From contig OZ025717.1 in the NCBI GenBank assembly GCA_964019335.1, positions 248,001 through 312,000 of the forward strand: 64,000 nt of DNA, given 5' to 3'. The DNA is from Diplonema japonicum. Taxonomy: Eukaryota; Protista; Euglenozoa: Diplonemea. The position numbers and the translations under genes are program-made. Shown in pieces: positions 1 to 38,852 of the stretch (positions are counted from its first letter, which is position 1; each line of letters begins with the position of its first letter). Under the pieces are notes generated by a model. The model had not been told where the DNA came from. It did not search any database and saw only the letters and a program-made list of their open reading frames with translations.

Positions 1-824
1 AGGTCCCAAGGCCCCGTCCCCGTCTTGAAGGTGTCGGCGTGCCACATCTCCTCGTAGTCGACGTCCACCCCTGCGCACCCCAGGTCCTTCGCCAGGTGCA
101 CGAGGTCCTCGTAAGGGTTCCTCCCTGCCGACAGGTACGCCGTCATCCCCGGAACCAGGGTCGAGATCCCTGTCTTCGGGTCCGTCCACTGCTGCCCGGG
201 GATCATGTTCTCGTTCCACTGGGGTGTCGCCGCCCCGTTCGCTCCCGCCTCCACGTACTCCTTCGCAGCCTTCCAAGAAGCAGAGTGCGAGGGCTCAGGG
301 AAGATGGAGAAGGACTTGTCGAGAGAGGTGTGCTGCGAGGGAGGCTCGCACACGTAGCAGTACTGGTTCCCCTTCGTGCAGCCGCTCAAGCTGCCCCCTC
401 CGAACTCTTGGATCTTCCAGTAGTTCGGGGTGCTCGTCCCGTAGCCTCCGACCGAGTAGCGCATGTACAGGTAAGGGTAGCAGTTGTAGTTCCACCCTCC
501 CATCGACAGGAAGGTCTCCACCCCGCCCGCCTCCAGCTGCTTCACGTACTGCTCCACCTCCGCGAACCCACCGTCCGCCGCCGCCGTCAGGTTCAGCCCC
601 GTCCCGACAAGGGTCCGCGACCCGTTCACGTACAGCATCGTCGGCGACACGAACGACAGCCACATCCTGTTCACAGGGAGGCTCCCAGCCTTGCTCGCAA
701 GCACCTTCAGCTGCTGCACGTCCTGCACAAGGAGGTACCCGCCCACGTAGTTCTTCCCAGCTCCTTCCGTCCCCGTTGCGAGAAGCAGGGCTGCTGCCAG
801 TGAACTCAATAACAAGCCTGACAT
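1..824 (-). CDS. GH18 chitinase-like secreted glycoside hydrolase, copy 1 (3' end runs off window)
   Basis: Matches 7377-8200 with no differences seen (offset 7376). ATG at 824, signal peptide, LSMGGW and DVDYE (DxDxE) motifs. Confidence 0.85.
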   Translation of the reverse strand, partial: MSGLLLSSLAAALLLATGTEGAGKNYVGGYLLVQDVQQLKVLASKAGSLPVNRMWLSFVSPTMLYVNGSRTLVGTGLNLTAAADGGFAEVEQYVKQLEAGGVETFLSMGGWNYNCYPYLYMRYSVGGYGTSTPNYWKIQEFGGGSLSGCTKGNQYCYVCEPPSQHTSLDKSFSIFPEPSHSASWKAAKEYVEAGANGAATPQWNENMIPGQQWTDPKTGISTLVPGMTAYLSAGRNPYEDLVHLAKDLGCAGVDVDYEEMWHADTFKTGTGPWD

Positions 825-1381
825 GTTTCTTTGTGCAAAAAAAGAGGGTTTTCTTTTTGTGTTTCCTTATGTTTTGTTTTGGCAGGGGGGGGGGGGGGGG
901 GGTTTGCAAGCGGAAAAAAAGAAAAACAATAAAACAAAACGAGGAGAGGAATCAAAAAAAAAAATAGTTTTTTTTAAGCACGTGTCGTAATCCTTCTGGA
1001 GTCCAGTGAATTAAAAAATAAATATAAATATAAAAGGTATAAGTATAAGAGGTTACGTCAAGGTGACGAAGATACGATCACCACAATCGGCACCAAGCCA
1101 TGGCGACTAGCCAAACGACACATTGGAGCGAGCAGGGTGATGTGGGGTCTTTTGCTTTTGCCGGAAGCCAAATGCGATCTATATAGCTGGTGACAGCCGG
1201 TCTCTCTGTTGAGGTCTTCTTGCTGCCCCATAATGGTAATGGGTTAGAGTCGTAGGAGATAGGTGTGGCTGGGAACAAAATACTGTACAAGGAAAGGTTC
1301 CAAAGTAAGATTTGCTCTGTTGAGTTGTACGGGAAAACATCACAATTAAGATTGAGGAATAGTGAGTGAAGAGACGCAGAA

Positions 1382-3056: not shown

Positions 3057-4688
3057 TCACACAGTGTCGTTGCAACGCATGAGCTTCATGAGGGACATCA
3101 TGCCGTTGTCTTCGTGTTGCAGAAGGTGGCAGTGCAGGACGGCCTCACCCTCGTACCTTACAGGCTTCATCCTGACCATCACACCGACGCCAGCCCAGGA
3201 GGGGACAACATCACGCCACTCCCCGTCCCTCATGACGGCCCCTGTGTTGTCGGCCCCGTCAATCACTTGGAAGTGGTTGATGTGCTGGTGGTACGGGTGA
3301 TAACCTTGAGAGGAGAGGACAGGGCCGTCGGGGTTGTGCCTTGAGGTCCCCGCGCCGCCGAGCTTGTATTGGTACACCTTATCCAAACAGAACACCTCCA
3401 CGTGCCTGTTCTCCCCCTGGTGGTTCCACCCTTGCCACGGAACACCATTCACAGTTAGCCCCGCTCGCCCTCCTGCCAGTATGATTTGGTCCACACCCGT
3501 CTCGCCCCCCAGCTGGACATCCTCCTCCTCCATCAACGACGTGAGGTAGCTTGGGAACGACACCTCGGAGGTCGGGACAGGGGTGTTTCGGGTCCCCTTT
3601 TTAACCGTGAACTGCAGGATGGTCTCTTGGGAGAAGGTGGACCTTGCATTGGGGGTCACTGCCGGGTTAGGGTTCGCACGGAGGTTGAAGGTCATCTCGT
3701 CGACGTTGTCAGGGAGGGAGCACGTCACAGCCACGTCAGCACGGGTGCCCTGCACCAAGACAATTGTCGACAGCTGGAGGTACGGTGTTTGTTGGAAGAC
3801 GCCGTCCCTCGCGAGCAGCGTCATGTTGCACAGCCCCAGGTCATCGTCGATCTCGAGACACAAGTGATGGCTGTCCCCTGCGTGCACCATGCGCAGGAGT
3901 GTTGCATCATCCTGCACCAGTCCGATCTCCGGCGACAGCACACCGTTGACGGTGTAGAAGTTCCCCGTCCCATCGTTCGGGAGGGACTGCTCGTCCTCCC
4001 ACTGCAGGTTGAGAGGCACCGTCACAGGGTCGTACTGGTCCACCAGGCTGGTGTGCGTAAAGAAGCCGTTCACACTGCCGTTCCCAAGGGCAAGGTAGTT
4101 CAGCATCAGAGGCGGGACACTTGGCCTGAGGTAAAGGGCTGCCAGGTCATTCGGGAGGTCAAAGGACGAGTCGGGGTCCATCAGAAGGATCCCAGCGAGG
4201 CCGCCAAGTGCCTGCAGGGCGGTGCTGCCGTGGTGGTGTGCATGGTACCAGTGTGTCCCCATGAGGTGGTACTCGGGGACCGTGTACGAGTAGGTGTGCT
4301 CCTCTCCAGGTTCGATGTGCGTGTCAATGTTGTCATCGTTAGGAGAGATGTGCAGCCCGTGTGTGTGCAGGGAGGTGACGTCGGGGCAGTGGAATCCATT
4401 CCCGCTCTCAGTGCAGTGTCCCCCACCAAGCCTGTTTACCACCCTCAGGTTGCACAGCTCCCCTGCTTGCATCCTGATTGTAGCACTTGGGAAGGTCACC
4501 TTTCCATCCACCCGGTACACACGTGAGGTAAACCCCACCACCCCTGCCACAGAAACATCCCCGGCCTCCACTTCTATCAACACCTCCCTCCCTCCTTTGC
4601 AGCTCACTTCCCTCACCCACGGTACGGGGACGCTTTCGCACGCTGCGCCCAGCAGAAGCAGCAGTAGGGTGGTGGTGCACATTTTCAT
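3057..4688 (-). CDS. Secreted multicopper oxidase (laccase/CueO-like, 3 cupredoxin domains)
   Basis: All four Cu motifs: HTHG, WYHAH, HPYHQHINHF, HCHLLQHEDNGMM; hydrophobic N-terminal signal. Start could be 4688 or 4682. Confidence 0.92.
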   Translation of the reverse strand: MKMCTTTLLLLLLGAACESVPVPWVREVSCKGGREVLIEVEAGDVSVAGVVGFTSRVYRVDGKVTFPSATIRMQAGELCNLRVVNRLGGGHCTESGNGFHCPDVTSLHTHGLHISPNDDNIDTHIEPGEEHTYSYTVPEYHLMGTHWYHAHHHGSTALQALGGLAGILLMDPDSSFDLPNDLAALYLRPSVPPLMLNYLALGNGSVNGFFTHTSLVDQYDPVTVPLNLQWEDEQSLPNDGTGNFYTVNGVLSPEIGLVQDDATLLRMVHAGDSHHLCLEIDDDLGLCNMTLLARDGVFQQTPYLQLSTIVLVQGTRADVAVTCSLPDNVDEMTFNLRANPNPAVTPNARSTFSQETILQFTVKKGTRNTPVPTSEVSFPSYLTSLMEEEDVQLGGETGVDQIILAGGRAGLTVNGVPWQGWNHQGENRHVEVFCLDKVYQYKLGGAGTSRHNPDGPVLSSQGYHPYHQHINHFQVIDGADNTGAVMRDGEWRDVVPSWAGVGVMVRMKPVRYEGEAVLHCHLLQHEDNGMMSLMKLMRCNDTV

Positions 4689-5125
4689 TTGTTGTACTGT
4701 AACCTTTTATTTTTTTAAATAGGGTTTTTATCCTTTCTTCTTCTTGTGGGACAGAAAAAAAGCAGGTCTCGCCATCATCGGTGACCGATCAGTGCACAGT
4801 GGGCTCAGTCAGGCTAAGGCATGATGTGGCTCGAGAAATGCTACGGAAGCAAGTAAGTTTGCTTTTTTTTTAAGTTTAGTTTCATTCTAAAAATGTATGA
4901 CACATGGTTGTCCCATGCCACGTAAGAGCCTTTTAAGCCATCGAGGCAGGGATAGAATATATGTACCGCAGCAAAGGGAAAGGGGGTTTGACTCCCCCAC
5001 CCCTCTGTTGACTTGCTTTACGAGCCGATCAGCGGGGAGCTGTGCACCACGGTGACAAAGGGTGCCTCCCATCCAAAGATTCGGTCGAGGGTTTTAAAAA
5101 AAGTTTTCGATTTGTCTTCGTTTAT

Positions 5126-5190
5126 TAAATGTGATCAAGGAGGCTTCACACGCAAATTGCCAAATTATAAAAGTGTTGTCATCATTTGTC
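5126..5190 (-). pseudogene. Truncated copy of the double-guide C/D snoRNA
   Basis: Keeps box C (ATGATGA, 5185-5179), the 18S guide and D'; has an internal deletion and lacks the D guide and box D. Confidence 0.55.
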
Positions 5191-5415
5191 TGTTGACCCA
5201 TCAGTCCATTCCCTCGAAGTGTCCCCTGCAAGCACAGCACCTCTGCGACAAGGGCGTGACGAGGGACTGCACAGGCAGCACTCTCCCGCCAAAGTAACTC
5301 GTCGTGTCCTTCAGTACCTTCACATCTTCCCAACGAATCCTAATGGTGTGTGCTACAGGGAAGCACCCCATGGTCCTGTTGGGTGGCAGAGTACGTTCTT
5401 CACTTGCTCACAAAG

Positions 5416-5517
5416 GATATCAGTCTCGTCTTCTAATAAAAATAATGTGATCAGGAGGCCTGTTGAGGGACTTCACACGCAAATTGCCAAATTATAAAAG
5501 TGTCGTCATCATCTGTC
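5416..5517 (-). ncRNA. Box C/D snoRNA, double guide (18S Am436-equivalent and LSU Gm2288-equivalent)
   Basis: Minus strand: box C ATGATGA (5512-5506), guide GGCAATTTGCGT, D' GTGA (5476-5473), C' TGATCA (5453-5448), guide ATTAGAAGACGAGA, box D CTGA (5423-5420). The +5 rule lands on conserved methylation sites for both guides. Confidence 0.82.
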
Positions 5518-5560
5518 TTGACCGAGCAAAAAGTTGTATTGTTTTCTCGCAAAGAGGATA

Positions 5561-5660
5561 GCCTCAGGAAAGTACCAATCAACTCTGATGAGAAACCAAG
5601 CAGTGCTTTATTTCCCTTCTTCTTGTGGGACAGAAAAAAGCAGGTCTCGCCATCATCGGC
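5561..5660 (-). ncRNA. Candidate box C/D snoRNA (LSU AGCAGGUCUC guide)
   Basis: gcc-g-ATGATGG (5656-5650) to CTGA-ggc (5567-5564) with a 3-bp terminal stem. GAGACCTGCT is complementary to conserved LSU AGCAGGUCUC. The 5' half is repeated near 4740-4780. Confidence 0.5.
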
Positions 5661-6017
5661 GACCAATCACAGTACTGCACAGTGGGCTCAGTCAGGCTAC
5701 GGAAGCAAGTAAGTTTGCTTTTTTTTTAAGTTTAGTTTCATTCTAAAAATGTATGACACATGGTTGTCCCATGCCACGTAAGAGCCTTTTAAGCATCGAG
5801 GCAGGGATAGAATATATGTACCGCAGCAAAGGGAAAGGGGGTTTGACTCCCCCACCCCTCTGTTGACTTGCTTTACGAGCCGATCAGCGGGGAGCTGTGC
5901 ACCACGGTGACAAAGGGTGCCTCCCATCCAAAGATTCGGTCGAGGGTTAGAGATAGAGATTTGATTTGTAATTTTTGTTTATTGATGGCTGTCTCTTCCC
6001 CCTTTTATTGCACAAAG

Positions 6018-6119
6018 GATATCAGTCTCGTCTTCTAAGAAAATAAATGTGATCAGGAGGCCTGTTGAGGGACTTCACACGCAAATTGCCAAATTATAAA
6101 AGTGTTGTCATCACTTGTC
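6018..6119 (-). ncRNA. Box C/D snoRNA, second full copy of the double guide
   Basis: Box C GTGATGA (6114-6108), same D' guide, D guide TTAGAAGACGAGA, box D CTGA (6025-6022). Confidence 0.8.
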
Positions 6120-6772
6120 TTGACCAGGAATGCAATGGGAAACTGGTGCATAGAAAAATACATTTTTCCGTCCGGGAGTTTTTCGTTTTACAGTAAATAA
6201 ATAAAATCAAAAAAAGAAAACAAAAGTAGAAAAGGAATACGATGTTTACGTGAAGACAGCCTCACGAAAGGAAAAGATGCAAACAAGAAGAGGAACAACA
6301 ACAAAACAGTGACTCGTGTCGCTGTTGGTGTTTTTGCAGTTCCTTCTTTGCTTGTACCCATGAGAGAGGAAGGAAAAAGTAAAAAAGGGACATTGTAACA
6401 TTGTTAACCACTTGAATTTTGAGAAGCACTGGGAGTGGGGAAAGGGTTGAAAGTAGAGAAATAAAGCACACAAAAGGAGACAAAAAAAAAGGGGGGGCCC
6501 TTTTGATGAACTGCCAGGTAAATGGACGGCCAACGCTGTTTGCGTTGTGTGGGAAGAGATGGCAGCAGGAATGAAGCAGTGGGGAAGGGAGGGAGATTGG
6601 GTGGACACGAGACATTTTTACCACAAAAAAGAAGAAGAAAAACTCACACTGCTGTGGGGAAGATATACAAACACCCACCAAACGGGAAAGGGAAAAAAAA
6701 AAAAAAAAAAGAAAGAAAGGAGGAAAAGAATAAAACTATATATCTATTTCCCACATCTTATTCACACTCTCT

Positions 6773-8200
6773 CTACTTCCAAGGAGGGATGACACCACTG
6801 CACCTGGAGCTCCCCGGGAGGAGCTTCTTGCAGAGGGCTTGGGCAAGCTGGGTCGGGGTCGCCTGTCCCGCCTCAGCAGGCTTGTACATCTCCCAGAAGA
6901 ACCCTCCCGCGTGGGAGGACTGGGTCTGAGAGATGATGCTGTCCATCATCTGGGTGGTGAGGGGAAGCTGGTGGGTGGGGTCGTGCTTGGGGTCCGGGTA
7001 GGCGGGGGTCCCGATCTCGTAGCCGACAGAGGCGGCGATGGGAACCTCCTTGTAGGTGTTCATGTAGAAGGCCACCTGCTGGTCCAGCTGGCACACCCCG
7101 GGCTGCGGGCACTCGTGGTACTGCTCGTTCGAGCTCAGGTCGTAGGTCATCACGTTCACCCCTCCAGAGCTGGGGCCTCCCGCCATGAAGCTCACCAGGT
7201 CAGGGTAGGCTTGGTTCACCTTCAACCACAACCCCTTCAGGTTCCCTCCCCACCAGCTCCCTCCCCACGCCCCCACAGCTCCCGCCGCAGTCGACAGCTT
7301 CATCTTCGGCGCCACCTTCCTCATCGTCCCCTCCACGTTCTTCAGGATAGCCGCGTACTTGTACACGGTCTGCTGCAGGTCCCAAGGCCCCGTCCCCGTC
7401 TTGAAGGTGTCGGCGTGCCACATCTCCTCGTAGTCGACGTCCACCCCTGCGCACCCCAGGTCCTTCGCCAGGTGCACGAGGTCCTCGTAAGGGTTCCTCC
7501 CTGCCGACAGGTACGCCGTCATCCCCGGAACCAGGGTCGAGATCCCTGTCTTCGGGTCCGTCCACTGCTGCCCGGGGATCATGTTCTCGTTCCACTGGGG
7601 TGTCGCCGCCCCGTTCGCTCCCGCCTCCACGTACTCCTTCGCAGCCTTCCAAGAAGCAGAGTGCGAGGGCTCAGGGAAGATGGAGAAGGACTTGTCGAGA
7701 GAGGTGTGCTGCGAGGGAGGCTCGCACACGTAGCAGTACTGGTTCCCCTTCGTGCAGCCGCTCAAGCTGCCCCCTCCGAACTCTTGGATCTTCCAGTAGT
7801 TCGGGGTGCTCGTCCCGTAGCCTCCGACCGAGTAGCGCATGTACAGGTAAGGGTAGCAGTTGTAGTTCCACCCTCCCATCGACAGGAAGGTCTCCACCCC
7901 GCCCGCCTCCAGCTGCTTCACGTACTGCTCCACCTCCGCGAACCCACCGTCCGCCGCCGCCGTCAGGTTCAGCCCCGTCCCGACAAGGGTCCGCGACCCG
8001 TTCACGTACAGCATCGTCGGCGACACGAACGACAGCCACATCCTGTTCACAGGGAGGCTCCCAGCCTTGCTCGCAAGCACCTTCAGCTGCTGCACGTCCT
8101 GCACAAGGAGGTACCCGCCCACGTAGTTCTTCCCAGCTCCTTCCGTCCCCGTTGCGAGAAGCAGGGCTGCTGCCAGTGAACTCAATAACAAGCCTGACAT
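6773..8200 (-). CDS. GH18 chitinase-like secreted glycoside hydrolase, copy 2 (475 aa)
   Basis: Signal peptide; FLSMGGW; catalytic GVDVDYEE; NVMTYD; GGFFWE at the last strand of the TIM barrel. Confidence 0.88.
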   Translation of the reverse strand: MSGLLLSSLAAALLLATGTEGAGKNYVGGYLLVQDVQQLKVLASKAGSLPVNRMWLSFVSPTMLYVNGSRTLVGTGLNLTAAADGGFAEVEQYVKQLEAGGVETFLSMGGWNYNCYPYLYMRYSVGGYGTSTPNYWKIQEFGGGSLSGCTKGNQYCYVCEPPSQHTSLDKSFSIFPEPSHSASWKAAKEYVEAGANGAATPQWNENMIPGQQWTDPKTGISTLVPGMTAYLSAGRNPYEDLVHLAKDLGCAGVDVDYEEMWHADTFKTGTGPWDLQQTVYKYAAILKNVEGTMRKVAPKMKLSTAAGAVGAWGGSWWGGNLKGLWLKVNQAYPDLVSFMAGGPSSGGVNVMTYDLSSNEQYHECPQPGVCQLDQQVAFYMNTYKEVPIAASVGYEIGTPAYPDPKHDPTHQLPLTTQMMDSIISQTQSSHAGGFFWEMYKPAEAGQATPTQLAQALCKKLLPGSSRCSGVIPPWK

Positions 8201-8544
8201 GTTTCTTTGTGCAAAAAAAGAGGGTTTTCTTTTTGTGTTTCCTTATGTTTTGTTTTGGCAGTGTGTGCGCGTTATTGAGACAGAACAGGAGCATAAAAAG
8301 AAATTTGTTAGAGAAAAAAAAAGGGGGGGATATCCACCAAGTTTCTTAATGACCGATGTAGGAGGTGACTCTTAATTAAAAAAATAATTATGAAAAGCCC
8401 ACATGAAATACAGCAGTAGTTAGGATGGGGCGGATAGAGGTGGGGGGGGGGGGGGGACGAATTAAGGAATGCAAATCCTTAATTTCTTCTTTTTTTTTTT
8501 GCATTTTCTTCTTTTTCTTTCTTTCTTCATTTGGTATGATTCCC

Positions 8545-9373: not shown

Positions 9374-12260
9374 TATGAGTTAAAGGAAGTCTTTGTGAGA
9401 CGCCCCCTTGTTCTCATGCTCTACCTGCACCTATCCCCCTTCAGCAGCGGTTTCTCCTTCTTCGGTGGTCGTGCCGGCCTCCTCCCCAGCTTGGCTACTT
9501 TTTCCCATCTTTCCTTTGCCCATTGCTTCCCCAGCTCCTCCAGGTCGTACTTGGTCTTCGTTGATGCAAAGATTGCTCTTCTACTCCACCCGATCACCGC
9601 CTTCGTCCCTCCGATTGATCGCAGCGTATGTACTCTCTTGCATGGTTCAGCAGGGAAGGCCCTCCTTCCTTTCACCTTCTTCTGCAGTCTCCCTAGTTCC
9701 CATGTGTTCCACACCTTCTTCATCACCGTGTGCAGTCTCCTGGCCTTCTGTCGCACCTCTGCCAACTCCCCTAGCTTCCCTCCAAGGGATTTCTGGGTCA
9801 CGTTTTCGAAATCCAGCGCCAGCTCCACCGTCGACACTGCCGTGCTTCTGTTCCCTCCATACCAGCGCAGCTGCTTGAGCCATTTCAGCACCGGTTTCGT
9901 GTACTCCTTCAGGGTGTTGCCGGTCTGCAGCCTCGCGAACTCCTCCTCTGTTGGTGCTGGGTGTGCCTCCCCCTCCGTGATCTCCAGCCATTGGTGTGTC
10001 CGGTAGATCTGCTGCCTCTTTGCCTGCAAGGCTGCGTCGCGTTCCCCCACCACAGCCAGCAGGTAACGCTGGGTCTTCTCGAGCCTGTCCTTGTCCTCCT
10101 TGGCCGCTTCCCTCGGGAGGATGCCATGGAGCCTCATGCACGGTTCTAGGCCTGTTCGTGTCGTGCCTGCATGTGCCTCCCGTTGCCCTACTTCGACACG
10201 TCCTGCTGCCTCTGCTCCGCCAGCAGCCCCGCCTCTCTTTCTTCTTCGTCTTCTGAGTCGTCTCGGGAATCTTCTTCGTCCACCTCCTCCTCCGTCGGTG
10301 GGATGTGTGCCACTGCGTCCGTCCGCCATCCCCGTGGGTGGATGTAGAAAACCGCGCCTGTGATCACCCTGCGTAGGTTCCTTGCTGCGATGGGGTCCGA
10401 CGACGCCAGCTTCCCCCATAGCTCGTTTGTCTCGACAGCGGCTGCTGTCGCCATTCCTTTCATGGTGCTCCGTTTTCCCATGATGGCCTCCGCTTCACCA
10501 CGCCTGAGCTTGTCTCTGATGTAGTGTCGGAACCGCTCCTTCTCCATGGCCATGGTGTCCTTCAGCTGGTCCCAGGTTGCTTGCACCATGGGTAGCCACC
10601 TCTGCTTCAGGTTTCCCACCAGGCCCAGCGCCTTCTTCCCTTCCCGGTACAGCTTTGCGATGTCGTTGCAGCGTGCCCACAATTGGTCGTCCTTCCTGCA
10701 TGCCCTGTACATGAGCATCAGTGCTTTGTAGGCTGCTGTCATCTTCGGGTGGTGTGTGTCACGGAGAGTACTGCGCCGGGGCTCCGCGTGCGATACCTCT
10801 GGCCCCACAGCGTGTATGTCGTCTCCATCACCAGGAGTTCCATCATCCCCGTCCTTGGCGGTGAGAAGGGGGCGTCGTACAGGCAGCTTGGCAGCAGTGT
10901 GGAGCTGATGATCCGCGCCTTCTGCTGGAAGGACAGCGGGGTCGCCCCCAGCCTGCTCAACGTCTTCATCGCTTCCTTGGCCCTGTCGTTGTTGTATTGC
11001 TGCTGGCCGTCCGTCCGCAGCTTGGCTCCCAGCACCTCCACTGTCCGCACTGCCTGCAGCACTTCACCGTCCACCTTCACTTCCGGTGCCTTGGCGCCTG
11101 TCGTAAAGGTTTTGGTTTTCTTTACGTTTAGCTTCATGCCAACCATTTTGCAGAAGTCCTCCACCGCCTCCACCCCCTTCTGCAGTGCTGCCGCGAGTTG
11201 TGCCAGAAGGTACGCGTCGTCAGCGTACGACAACGAGCGGACCCCCGTGCCGTCCTCTACCTGTTTCATCAGCACTGCCAGTAACGCGTTGATGAGTACC
11301 ACAGATATGGGGCACCCTTGTAGGATTCCATTTGTCGTGTGGAACTCCTCTCCAACGCCCGTGGCGTACCTGAAACGTCTCCGCATGCCCGCGTACATCC
11401 CCTTCAGCGCCCTTAGAATGCCCGTCTCCATGCCCATGTCCTCCACCAGCTCCATCACTAGTTGCTGCGGTACGCTGTCGAAACACTTCGCAAAGTCAAG
11501 TGCCACCCCGACCAGCGGTTTCCCTTCGAGTAGAGATTCCTCGATGTCCAGGGCGAGGTCCATTAGCGCGTCCTCTGTCCCGAAGCCTGTGCGGAATCCG
11601 TACTGCTTGTCGTGTACCCACTTCTCCTGCCAGAGAAGGATGTCTGCCAGTCGCGTGCATGCCCAAAGTCTGTACACCGCTGATGTCACCGTGATGGGTC
11701 TGTGCTCCAGCGGTCCCGCGTCGTCGCATTTTGGTACGAGTGTGACCAGCGCCGTCTTCACGGCCTCTGGCCATCTCCCGGTTGCTTCGATCGCTTGGAA
11801 GAGCTGAGCCCAGGCGTCCAACACCGACTCTGGTAGTTTGCGTAGCTCCAGCATCCTCCACCCGTCTATGCCTGCTGCGCTTCTCTTGCTCTTCCTTGCG
11901 AGTACCTCTCTCAGCCTCGCTCCCGTGAGCTGCGTCTTCGTCATCTCATGCCGTTGTATAAACTTGCCATACTTTGCCTTGAAGGGGGCGAAGGGGGGTT
12001 CCGACTTGTTTTCGTACTTCGAGAAGACGCTCTTCCAGGCTTTGCGCATGACTGCGTCGATCTTCGCAGGGTCTGCCACTAGTAACTTCCCATCCTTGAC
12101 TGCCCTGGTCCCATCGCTCTGGCGTTTTCCTCTTGCTACTGTCACCAGCTTGGCCGTTTCTCTTCCCGATGCCACCTCAGCCAGGTATTCCCGTCTTCGC
12201 GTCGTGTTCGACTCGGTCCTCTTCCTCCGTTCTTGCGCTGCCACGGCGTCCTCCTTGTCT
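9374..12260 (-). mobile_element. 5'-truncated, frameshifted non-LTR retrotransposon (RT plus C-terminal region)
   Basis: ORF 10739-12244 has LINE RT motifs (HRPITV, QYGFR, LDFAKCFDSV, GILQGCPIS, YADD, LNVKKT). Reading continues in shifted frames (10188-10808, 9421-10419). AATAAATA flanks both sides (9366-9373, 12261-12268) as a putative TSD. No endonuclease domain visible. Confidence 0.88.
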
Positions 12261-37997: not shown

Positions 37998-38100
37998 GAT
38001 TCCGGAGAGGGAGCCTGAGAAACGGCTACCTCTTCTAAGGATGGCAGCAGGCGCGCAAATTGTCCAATAGCAACGCTGCTGAGGTAGCGAAGAGAAATAG
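37998..38100 (+). pseudogene. Isolated 18S (SSU) rRNA fragment
   Basis: GATTCCGGAGAGGGAGCCTGAGAAACGGCTACC...GGCAGCAGGCGCGCAAATT is a conserved eukaryotic SSU block; the flanks are not rRNA. Confidence 0.92.
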
Positions 38101-38852
38101 TGTGAGTGACTCAAATGACGAAGAGTGAAATAAAACGACTTACTTGCCGCCAAATGGGCCATAATTTAACTCGAGTTAAATATGACTCATAATTTGTTGG
38201 CAATGAATAGCAATTTTTTTTTTTTGCTCTCTTCCACTTGCTCAAAAGGGTTTCTTTGCTGCCTGTATCCCCTCCCCTCCCCTCCCTTTTTTTTTTCTTC
38301 TTTTTGTGAAAAGTGCAACACAAAACCCAGATTTCTTTTTTTTTTGTTTTGTTTCCACACCTCACTTGGTTCCCTTTTCCCCGTTTCATTTGATGCGATA
38401 ACTTACAAAAAGGCATCAAAACAAAAAACTGGAAAAAAAATAAAGGGGGGGGGTGAGGACAGCAAGGGGTAGGGAATAAGGCCGCCACTGCAGGGAAAAA
38501 AAGGGGGAGGGGGAAGGTAACTACGAGGAGAAGTGTGCTAGAGCAACCGCACCACCCCTCAAAAAAGCACACCTGAAGGGATGGAGGGGACATTTTTTTT
38601 TTCAACTTGGCAACATTACCGCACAGTTGTCATTGCCATTTTTTTGGGGGGTTTTTCATCTCTTTTTTTAACTCTAGGAGGAAAGAGGGGGCGGGGGGGC
38701 TTCTGTTTCTGACACCTGGATCTAAAAGGGGGGAAATAAAAAATGGGAAAAAAAAATTCAAAGACCAGATAAAAATGGGGGGGGTCGGACTAGGTGGCGC
38801 AAGTTAGGAAATATGAGAACGCGTGAAAAAAAAAGGAAAACACAATCGCGGT

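What the first reader, a model, noticed from the sequence alone, without database searches (positions are those of the whole stretch)
5416..6119. Hidden double-guide box C/D snoRNA pairing an SSU guide with an LSU guide, in tandem copies
Seen: on the minus strand the repeated ~100-nt unit reads box C (RTGATGA), GGCAATTTGCGT, D' (GTGA), C' (TGATCA), TTAGAAGACGAGA, box D (CTGA). Known: the nucleotide paired 5 nt upstream of D/D' is 2'-O-methylated. Guide 1 targets the first A of SSU GCGCAAAUU (yeast 18S Am436, snR87; human SNORD16 site). Guide 2 targets the G of LSU CCUCGUC (yeast 25S Gm2288, snR75) and predicts the variant CUCGUCUUCUAA. Inference: two yeast guide functions are combined in one RNA here, embedded co-directionally in the gene array. 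The 18S fragment in this same window contains the predicted target A (38057) and pairs with guide 1 with G-U wobbles. Site numbering is from memory.
Basis: partly seen in the sequence, partly recalled or inferred. Interest (0 to 1): 0.8.

Follow-up and report, generated by a model that had tools for sequence, protein, structure and literature searches.

The report
Diplonemid double-guide snoRNA gene cluster
In a marine diplonemid protist, a repeated cluster of small-RNA genes holds a box C/D RNA predicted to mark one site in each ribosomal subunit for methylation (an ordinary kind of RNA, in a pairing of targets not seen in the other lineages compared), next to a likely U17/snR30 ribosome-processing RNA and a likely pseudouridine guide.

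Summary
The feature is real. Two 93-nt copies (6114-6022, 5512-5420, minus strand) carry boxes C, D', C' and D and two antisense guides; a third copy (5185-5132) lacks the D half. Guide 1 puts A38057 of the window's 18S fragment at +5, the site of yeast Am436 and Leishmania Am479. Guide 2 puts the G of the yeast Gm2288 / trypanosome Gm534-552 site at +5 in euglenozoan rDNA. The host's own LSU, expression and methylation remain untested. Trypanosomatids, yeast and Dictyostelium use two separate RNAs for these sites, so this pairing is lineage-specific, but SSU+LSU double guides and guide reshuffling are well described. My two paper searches found no description of diplonemid snoRNAs. The scan holds no look-alike of this RNA; it noted U17 in a snoRNA cluster in another genome. 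Verdict: new member of a known kind, modest interest.

The parts
6012..6118 (-). Box C/D RNA, copy 1 (C 6114-6108, D' 6078-6075, C' 6055-6050, D 6025-6022, terminal stem)
   Evidence: weak Rfam match to snoZ101, 19.9 bits against a cut-off of 44
6079..6090 (-). Guide 1 (D' guide) of copy 1, antisense to the SSU site equivalent to yeast A436 / Leishmania A479
   Evidence: like the LM32Cs1C1 D' guide
6027..6038 (-). Guide 2 (D guide) of copy 1, antisense to the LSU site equivalent to yeast G2288 / T. brucei LSU-beta G552
   Evidence: 12 Watson-Crick pairs in 7 of 7 long rDNA loci (loci were selected for this site); like the TB10Cs1C4 and LM36Cs1C2 guide
5410..5516 (-). Box C/D RNA, copy 2 (C 5512-5506, guide 1 5488-5477, D' 5476-5473, C' 5453-5448, guide 2 5436-5425, D 5423-5420)
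   Evidence: 94.8% identical to copy 1 over 115 nt
5437..5450 (-). Segment 3' of C' in copy 2 that can pair with the window's 18S fragment about 35-50 nt downstream of the target A (possible extra base-pairing element)
   Evidence: 13 pairs with 38092-38106; 5 of 1000 shuffles as good; weaker in copy 1 (92 of 1000); found post hoc
5132..5190 (-). Incomplete third copy: box C, guide 1, D' and C' kept; no intact guide 2 or box D
5749..5948 (-). U17/snR30-like H/ACA RNA, copy 1 (m1-like 5815-5808, m2-like 5766-5760, ACA at 5752)
   Evidence: 3' hairpin with both motifs in the internal loop and 7 nt to ACA; weak Rfam matches to SNORA73 (E 0.22) and the 3' end of snoTBR17
4893..5093 (-). U17/snR30-like RNA, copy 2 (m1-like 4960-4953, m2-like 4910-4904, ACA at 4896)
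   Evidence: one inserted base relative to copy 1
4764..4834 (-). Single-hairpin AGA-box RNA, full copy; predicted pseudouridylation guide for a conserved LSU U (AGA at 4769, 5' pocket 4821-4814)
   Evidence: 12 Watson-Crick pocket pairs in 4 of 6 loci, U 15 nt from AGA, 3 of 150 shuffles as good
5639..5702 (-). AGA-box RNA copy lacking 27 nt of its 5' side (loses the 5' stem and most of the 5' pocket); likely non-functional
37998..38108 (+). Isolated 18S rDNA fragment holding the guide-1 target A38057; likely a dispersed, partly decayed copy
   Evidence: Rfam SSU_rRNA_eukarya 57.4 bits

Best explanation
The two intact copies are likely genes for a double-guide box C/D snoRNA that is predicted to direct 2'-O-methylation of one conserved A in 18S rRNA (through D') and one conserved G in 28S rRNA (through D), and they lie in a repeated cluster with a likely U17/snR30 RNA and a likely pseudouridine guide. 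Shown: boxes, spacing, complementarity, the +5 positions, repetition, co-orientation with the flanking genes. Inferred: the cluster is transcribed with the polycistronic gene array and cut out of the precursor as in trypanosomatids; the RNA assembles with fibrillarin, Nop56, Nop58 and Snu13; each guide acts on its own site in the pre-rRNA. The 5' part resembles Leishmania LM32Cs1C1 (D' guide for Am479, the same C' sequence), so the RNA is most simply a U16/snR87-type RNA whose free D side carries the snR75-type guide that trypanosomatids keep on a separate RNA; which state is older is not determined.
For: Box anatomy in both copies. Both +5 bases fall on positions methylated in yeast, Arabidopsis and Dictyostelium and in Leishmania / T. 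brucei. Trypanosomatid guides for the LSU site differ from guide 2 at one base (G for A), and that rRNA position varies between C (4 of 119 loci) and U (115 of 119). Among 1690 NTGA sites of the window 15 have 12 or more pairs to rDNA in 3 of 6 loci; of the 14 rows printed the only CTGA boxes are the two D boxes. The RNA folds less stably than 200 of 200 and 197 of 200 shuffles, as expected for open guides. In a contig of run X11 spanning 5358-5609, 6 of 7 substitutions are listed, at 5504 and 5521-5538, and all 7 gap letters lie at 5520-5533, at or outside the 5' end of the RNA; in run X14 the AGA RNA is joined to the C/D RNA by a different 29-nt spacer. Neighbours are themselves snoRNA-like, and mixed, repeated clusters are the trypanosomatid norm (PMC2613932; PMC6562600).
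Against: The host's LSU and functional 18S sequences were not seen, so guide 2 is matched only to relatives, and those loci were selected for the site (partly circular). No Rfam family reaches its cut-off. D' (GUGA) and C' (UGAUCA) are non-consensus. Guide 1 matched only 3 of 7 long rDNA loci at the script's threshold, and pairs with the window's fragment through two G-U pairs. The cluster holds broken copies (third C/D copy, shortened AGA RNA), so some intact-looking copies may also be dead. The difference tables are cut (18 and 33 rows not shown) and the holders look like close strains or paralogues, so conservation evidence is shallow. No match to the whole unit in the metagenome collection.
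Confidence: 0.8

Rival explanations
1. The RNA is made, but only the D' guide methylates; the LSU-antisense element acts as a folding or processing contact without methylation, as the second element of Leishmania LM32Cs1C1 does at helix 68.
For: LM32Cs1C1 guides Am479 and pairs with H68 as a chaperone (PMC13487219 section 10); silencing TB10Cs1C4 disturbs pre-rRNA processing (PMC6411936).
Against: Guide 2 sits one base from a consensus CUGA box and puts a known methylated G exactly at +5, unlike non-methylating elements, which are rarely next to a D box (PMC3116282).
Confidence: 0.08
2. These copies are silent relics spread by segmental duplication; the working genes lie elsewhere in the genome.
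For: A third copy lacks its D half and one AGA RNA lacks 27 nt; the flanking chitinase-like gene is duplicated exactly; a retroelement reading frame lies at 10739-12049.
Against: Copies 1 and 2 differ only outside boxes D', C', D and both guides; differences seen in other runs cluster in the spacers.
Confidence: 0.09
3. The boxes and complementarities are chance matches in duplicated intergenic DNA.
For: No Rfam match above cut-off; 11-nt matches to rDNA with wobble pairs are frequent in the region.
Against: Two guides both obey the +5 rule at known methylated sites and resemble validated trypanosomatid guides; two further snoRNA-like elements flank them.
Confidence: 0.03

Closest known systems
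Leishmania LM/LD/LA32Cs1C1 (guides SSU Am479; PMC13487219)
   Same: D' guide for the same 18S A, non-consensus D', the same C' sequence UGAUCA, similar length, a U-rich stretch after C'.
   Different: Single copy; listed for SSU_479 only; its second contact is a 12-nt pairing with LSU H68 upstream of D'. The matching stretch here shows no H68 pairing with relatives' rRNA (246 of 500 shuffles as good) and the D side carries a methylation guide.
T. brucei TB10Cs1C4 / Leishmania LM36Cs1C2 (guide LSU-beta Gm552 / Gm534; called snR75 equivalent in PMC6562600)
   Same: Guide nearly identical to guide 2, one base before a CUGA box; methylation shown by silencing (PMC6411936).
   Different: The guide is at D', not D; one base differs; no SSU guide on the RNA; has an ITS6 contact that cannot apply to the unfragmented diplonemid LSU (PMC9082867).
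Yeast snR87 / human U16 (SNORD16) / plant snoZ101 / A. fumigatus Afu_514 / Dictyostelium CD8
   Same: D' guide for 18S A436/A484; weak Rfam matches rest on this guide.
   Different: The second element differs in each: CD8 guides Am466, snoZ101 has another D-side sequence; none of those I saw carries the G2288 guide.
Yeast snR75 / Arabidopsis U15 / Dictyostelium CD14
   Same: Guide the LSU G2288-equivalent.
   Different: Single guide, or paired with the neighbouring Am2271 in Arabidopsis; not paired with the SSU site.
U17/snR30 (SNORA73; trypanosome TB11Cs2C3, Rfam snoTBR17) for the neighbour RNA
   Same: 3' hairpin with m1- and m2-like motifs facing each other, 7 nt before an ACA box.
   Different: m1 is one C shorter and m2 begins with C instead of A relative to the Rfam consensus; far below the Rfam cut-off; different cluster neighbours from the trypanosome TB11Cs2 set.

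Membership tests
Box C/D methylation-guide snoRNA | Box C near the 5' end and box D near the 3' end, held by a terminal stem | tested here: met
   RUGAUGA and CUGA 93 nt apart with a short stem in both copies
Box C/D methylation-guide snoRNA | Internal D' and C' boxes | tested here: met
   GUGA and UGAUCA; non-consensus, C' identical to LM32Cs1C1; divergent D' is reported for snR87
Box C/D methylation-guide snoRNA | 10 or more antisense bases next to D or D' with the target at +5 | tested here: met
   Guide 1 against the window's 18S fragment, guide 2 against euglenozoan LSU loci
Box C/D methylation-guide snoRNA | Complementarity to the organism's own LSU rRNA | not tested
   No host LSU sequence was obtained: none in the window, no genome held, none in the supplement read
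Box C/D methylation-guide snoRNA | Discrete nucleolar RNA bound by fibrillarin; target methylated | not testable with these tools
   Only contigs are held for the listed runs
Named Rfam family (snoZ101 / clan CL00057) | Score at or above the family's cut-off | tested here: not met
   18.4-20.5 bits against 44
LM32Cs1C1-type chaperone snoRNA | 12-nt pairing with LSU H68 upstream of D' | tested here: inconclusive
   No pairing with relatives' H68 (mean -4.1 kcal/mol; 246 of 500 shuffles as low); host H68 unknown
U17/snR30 | m1 and m2 on opposite strands of an internal loop in the 3' hairpin, 7 nt upstream of ACA | tested here: met
   Both copies (2 of 300 window shuffles hold such a pattern); spacing rule from PMC2664660
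U17/snR30 | m1/m2 pair with rm1/rm2 in 18S expansion segment 6 | tested here: inconclusive
   An rm2-like site with an rm1-like site upstream is visible in 6 of 7 loci, but the best computed duplexes fell elsewhere; host 18S region unknown
U17/snR30 | Rfam SNORA73 cut-off | tested here: not met
   13.5 bits against 74
U17/snR30 | H box in the hinge | not tested
   Not examined in a call
Trypanosomatid-type H/ACA-like RNA | Single hairpin, AGA box, target U 13-16 nt from AGA | tested here: met
   Full copy 4764-4834; rule from PMC2613932

The most novel reading that the evidence does not exclude
This one diplonemid RNA carries both jobs that trypanosomatids give to two separately important snoRNAs (the Am479 guide reported essential in Leishmania and the Gm552 guide tied to LSU processing in T. 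brucei), clamps 18S at a second site with the stretch after C', and is co-transcribed with U17/snR30, so that a single cluster couples early small-subunit processing to modification of the LSU intersubunit region; the trypanosomatid RNAs would be the split descendants that gained new contacts with the fragmented LSU.
Probability: 0.15. Interest if true: 0.5.

Novelty: new member of a known kind. Interest (0 to 1): 0.27.

Why it matters
It supplies concrete snoRNA gene candidates, including a U17/snR30 candidate, for diplonemids, an abundant marine group for which two full-text searches listed no snoRNA study. Diplonemids are sister to kinetoplastids but keep an unfragmented LSU (PMC9082867), so they are the natural outgroup for asking which trypanosomatid snoRNA features (AGA-box single hairpins, repeated mixed clusters, extra processing or chaperone contacts) predate rRNA fragmentation. 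The guide pairing is a clean example of guide reshuffling. It does not introduce a new mechanism.

Tried and rejected
Rfam at cut-off over the whole window: 0 matches. No whole genome is held. Sequencing runs: 14 of 15 listed hold part of 4600-6800, no RNA holder listed; only contigs could be laid, so nothing on expression. Pattern scans for relatives of the unit: 0 in metagenome contigs, 0 in viral contigs; LSU pattern in viral contigs 0. None of the 9 rDNA loci with an 18S match is the host (82-87% to the window's fragment). The host LSU sequence was not obtained by any route; the supplement of PMC9082867 read (file 1 of 2) holds only a figure legend. H68 chaperone pairing like LM32Cs1C1: not supported with relatives' rRNA. 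rm1/rm2 duplex search: inconclusive. The idea that the cluster is the spliced-leader-associated (SLA1) locus or that 5195-5410 is U3 was considered from recall; Rfam gave no such match and it was dropped. The 68-codon frame at 5201-5407 has no Pfam match. Papers not held: PMC344193, PMC4829279. Supplement of PMC7672448 unreadable; PMC7671301 passages had no bearing. Euglena snoRNA catalogues were not found in the library, so the same pairing there is not excluded. Earlier scan notes: none near, none by sequence.

Full report
Observation. The minus strand holds two copies of a 93-nt box C to box D unit, at 6114-6022 and 5512-5420, each reading C (RUGAUGA), an AU-rich spacer, guide 1, D' (GUGA), a small hairpin, C' (UGAUCA), a U-rich spacer, guide 2, one base and D (CUGA), with a short terminal stem. 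They are 94.8% identical over 115 nt and differ only outside both guides and boxes D', C' and D. A third copy (box C at 5185, C' ending at 5132) keeps guide 1 but has no intact guide 2 or D box. The guide 1+D' word occurs 3 times (0 of 100 shuffles reach 3). Rfam gives nothing at cut-off; the best weak match for all three copies is plant snoZ101, carried by guide 1 and the boxes (18.4-20.5 bits against 44).

Host and setting. A glutathione S-transferase of the window has Diplonema papillatum proteins (50-55% identity) as its best named relatives among 45 hits, so the host is a diplonemid; earlier unchecked notes on this genome say Diplonema. The cluster lies between a chitinase-like frame without Pfam match (8200-6773) and a multicopper oxidase gene (4688-3057), both on the same strand.

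Guide 1. With D' as the box, the +5 base is A38057 in an 18S fragment of the window: 12 pairs with two G-U, a mismatch, then 3 pairs. The fragment is short (37998-38100 aligns at 82-86% to six euglenozoan rDNA loci; Rfam 57.4 bits). Its helix next to the target has two G-U pairs where kinetoplastid loci have Watson-Crick pairs (sequences), so I infer a dispersed, partly decayed copy rather than the working gene. The site is yeast Am436/snR87, human Am484/U16, Arabidopsis Am438, Dictyostelium Am432 (table passages of PMC8817022; PMC5699541). In Leishmania it is Am479, guided by LM32Cs1C1, whose listed sequence has a similar D' guide and the same C' (supplement file 11 of PMC13487219). Guide 1 met the script's threshold in 3 of 7 long rDNA loci; the others vary at the site.

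Guide 2. Guide 2 forms 12 Watson-Crick pairs (13 in copy 2) in 7 of 7 long loci, with G at +5; these loci were selected for the site, so this shows that the variant exists in Euglenozoa and other protists, not that the host has it. In trypanosomatids the site (LSU-beta G534/G552) has its own RNA, LM36Cs1C2 / TB10Cs1C4, with a D' guide that differs from guide 2 by one base; both RNAs appear in one row each of that table, and silencing TB10Cs1C4 lowers Gm552 (passages of PMC6411936). As a background test, 15 of 1690 NTGA sites in the window have 12 or more pairs to rDNA in at least 3 of 6 loci; in the 14 rows printed the only CTGA boxes are the two D boxes, two are ATGA sites elsewhere and ten are U-rich runs. 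The host's LSU was not obtained and remains the main gap.

The cluster. A 370-390-nt block is repeated at 5616-5983 and 4737-5126. It holds a 200-nt element whose 3' hairpin has m1- and m2-like motifs across an internal loop, 7 nt before an ACA box (2 of 300 shuffles), the invariant spacing of U17/snR30 (PMC2664660 sections 3 and 9 and passages). A narrow Rfam scan matched it weakly to SNORA73 (E 0.22) and to the 3' end of trypanosome snoTBR17; pairing with 18S ES6 was inconclusive. Downstream is a single hairpin ending in AGA whose full copy (4764-4834) forms 8+4 Watson-Crick pocket pairs around a U in 4 of 6 loci, 15 nt from AGA (3 of 150 shuffles). That U lies 426-509 nt 3' of the guide-2 G in five loci; yeast pseudouridine 2735 lies 447 nt from G2288, and I equate them by that offset and by recalled context. 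The other copy lacks 27 nt. The order is therefore C/D, U17-like, AGA (broken), C/D, 211 unexplained bases, C/D (broken), U17-like, AGA. Mixed, repeated, polycistronic clusters and AGA single hairpins are the trypanosomatid pattern (passages of PMC2613932, and PMC6562600).

Other holders. Of 15 runs listed I laid 4, those of other organism labels. A contig of X11 over 5358-5609 has 7 substitutions, 6 listed (5504; 5521-5538), and 7 gap letters, all at 5520-5533. A contig of X12 over 6008-6298 has 15 substitutions, ten listed at 6115-6176 and none listed inside 6022-6114, but the tables are cut. X14 covers 5745-5948 with 1 substitution and 2 gap letters and joins the AGA RNA to the C/D RNA through another 29-nt spacer. 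These look like close strains or paralogous loci; the signal is modest and says nothing on expression.

Extra contacts. LM32Cs1C1 also pairs with LSU H68 and acts as a chaperone (PMC13487219 passages and section 10); the matching stretch here shows no such pairing with relatives' H68 (246 of 500 shuffles). The stretch after C' in copy 2 can form 13 pairs with the window's 18S fragment at 38092-38106 (5 of 1000 shuffles, 2 of 2000 random pieces), but copy 1 is weaker (92 of 1000), the element overlaps C' by three bases, and the test was post hoc. Extra pairing is reported for snR87/U16 and snR75 (PMC3116282 passages and section 8).

Mechanism. Most likely (0.8) the cluster is transcribed with the gene array, the RNAs are cut from the precursor, and the C/D RNA guides fibrillarin to the two sites by the +5 rule. 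Anatomy and pairing are shown; transcription, assembly and methylation are inferred from homologues. Rivals: a non-methylating LSU contact (0.08), silent copies (0.09), chance (0.03).

Novelty. In yeast, Arabidopsis, Dictyostelium and trypanosomatids the two sites are on different RNAs, so this pairing was not seen in what I read. But SSU+LSU double guides are common and guides are known to merge and split (passages of PMC5824354). Searches for diplonema+snoRNA and diplonemid+small nucleolar (listings only, except PMC9082867, of which I read the first of five parts and one supplement) listed no study of diplonemid snoRNAs. Euglena catalogues were not available, files 7 and 13-18 of PMC13487219 were not searched, and unseen supplements could hold the same pairing. 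Verdict: new member of a known kind; interest 0.27.

Noticed in passing
window 5749-5948 and 4893-5093 (-): U17/snR30-like H/ACA RNA in two copies, with m1/m2-like motifs and the 7-nt spacing to ACA; a candidate diplonemid U17, arguably as useful as the C/D RNA itself.
   Followed up: yes
window 4764-4834 and 5639-5702 (-): Single-hairpin AGA-box RNA predicted to guide a conserved LSU pseudouridine; the second copy has lost 27 nt between short direct repeats.
   Followed up: yes
window 5199-5409 (-): 211-nt G+C-rich (56%) single-copy stretch between C/D copies 2 and 3, with hairpins, a C-like and two CUGA words and a 68-codon open frame without Pfam match; unexplained.
   Followed up: partly
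window 37998-38108 (+): Isolated 18S rDNA piece of about 110 nt in AT-rich intergenic DNA, on the strand opposite to the gene array.
   Followed up: partly
window 1-885 and 7377-8261: The 5' part of a 475-aa secreted-looking, chitinase-like frame (no Pfam match; name from its DxDxE-like motif, recalled) is repeated with 100% identity on the other side of the cluster and oxidase gene, suggesting a larger, recent tandem duplication.
   Followed up: no
window 9421-12049 (-): Broken non-LTR retroelement: reverse transcriptase frame (PF00078) with further frames downstream.
   Followed up: no
window 14805-35742 (-): Three large membrane-anchored proteins with long 5-residue Thr/Pro/Ala repeats (15-nt DNA repeats) and related C-terminal membrane regions.
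   Followed up: no
L008, L023, L029, L030, L081, L094, L114: rDNA loci whose sequence just upstream of the LSU site is unrelated to the usual helix, as expected of an intron or insertion there.
   Followed up: no
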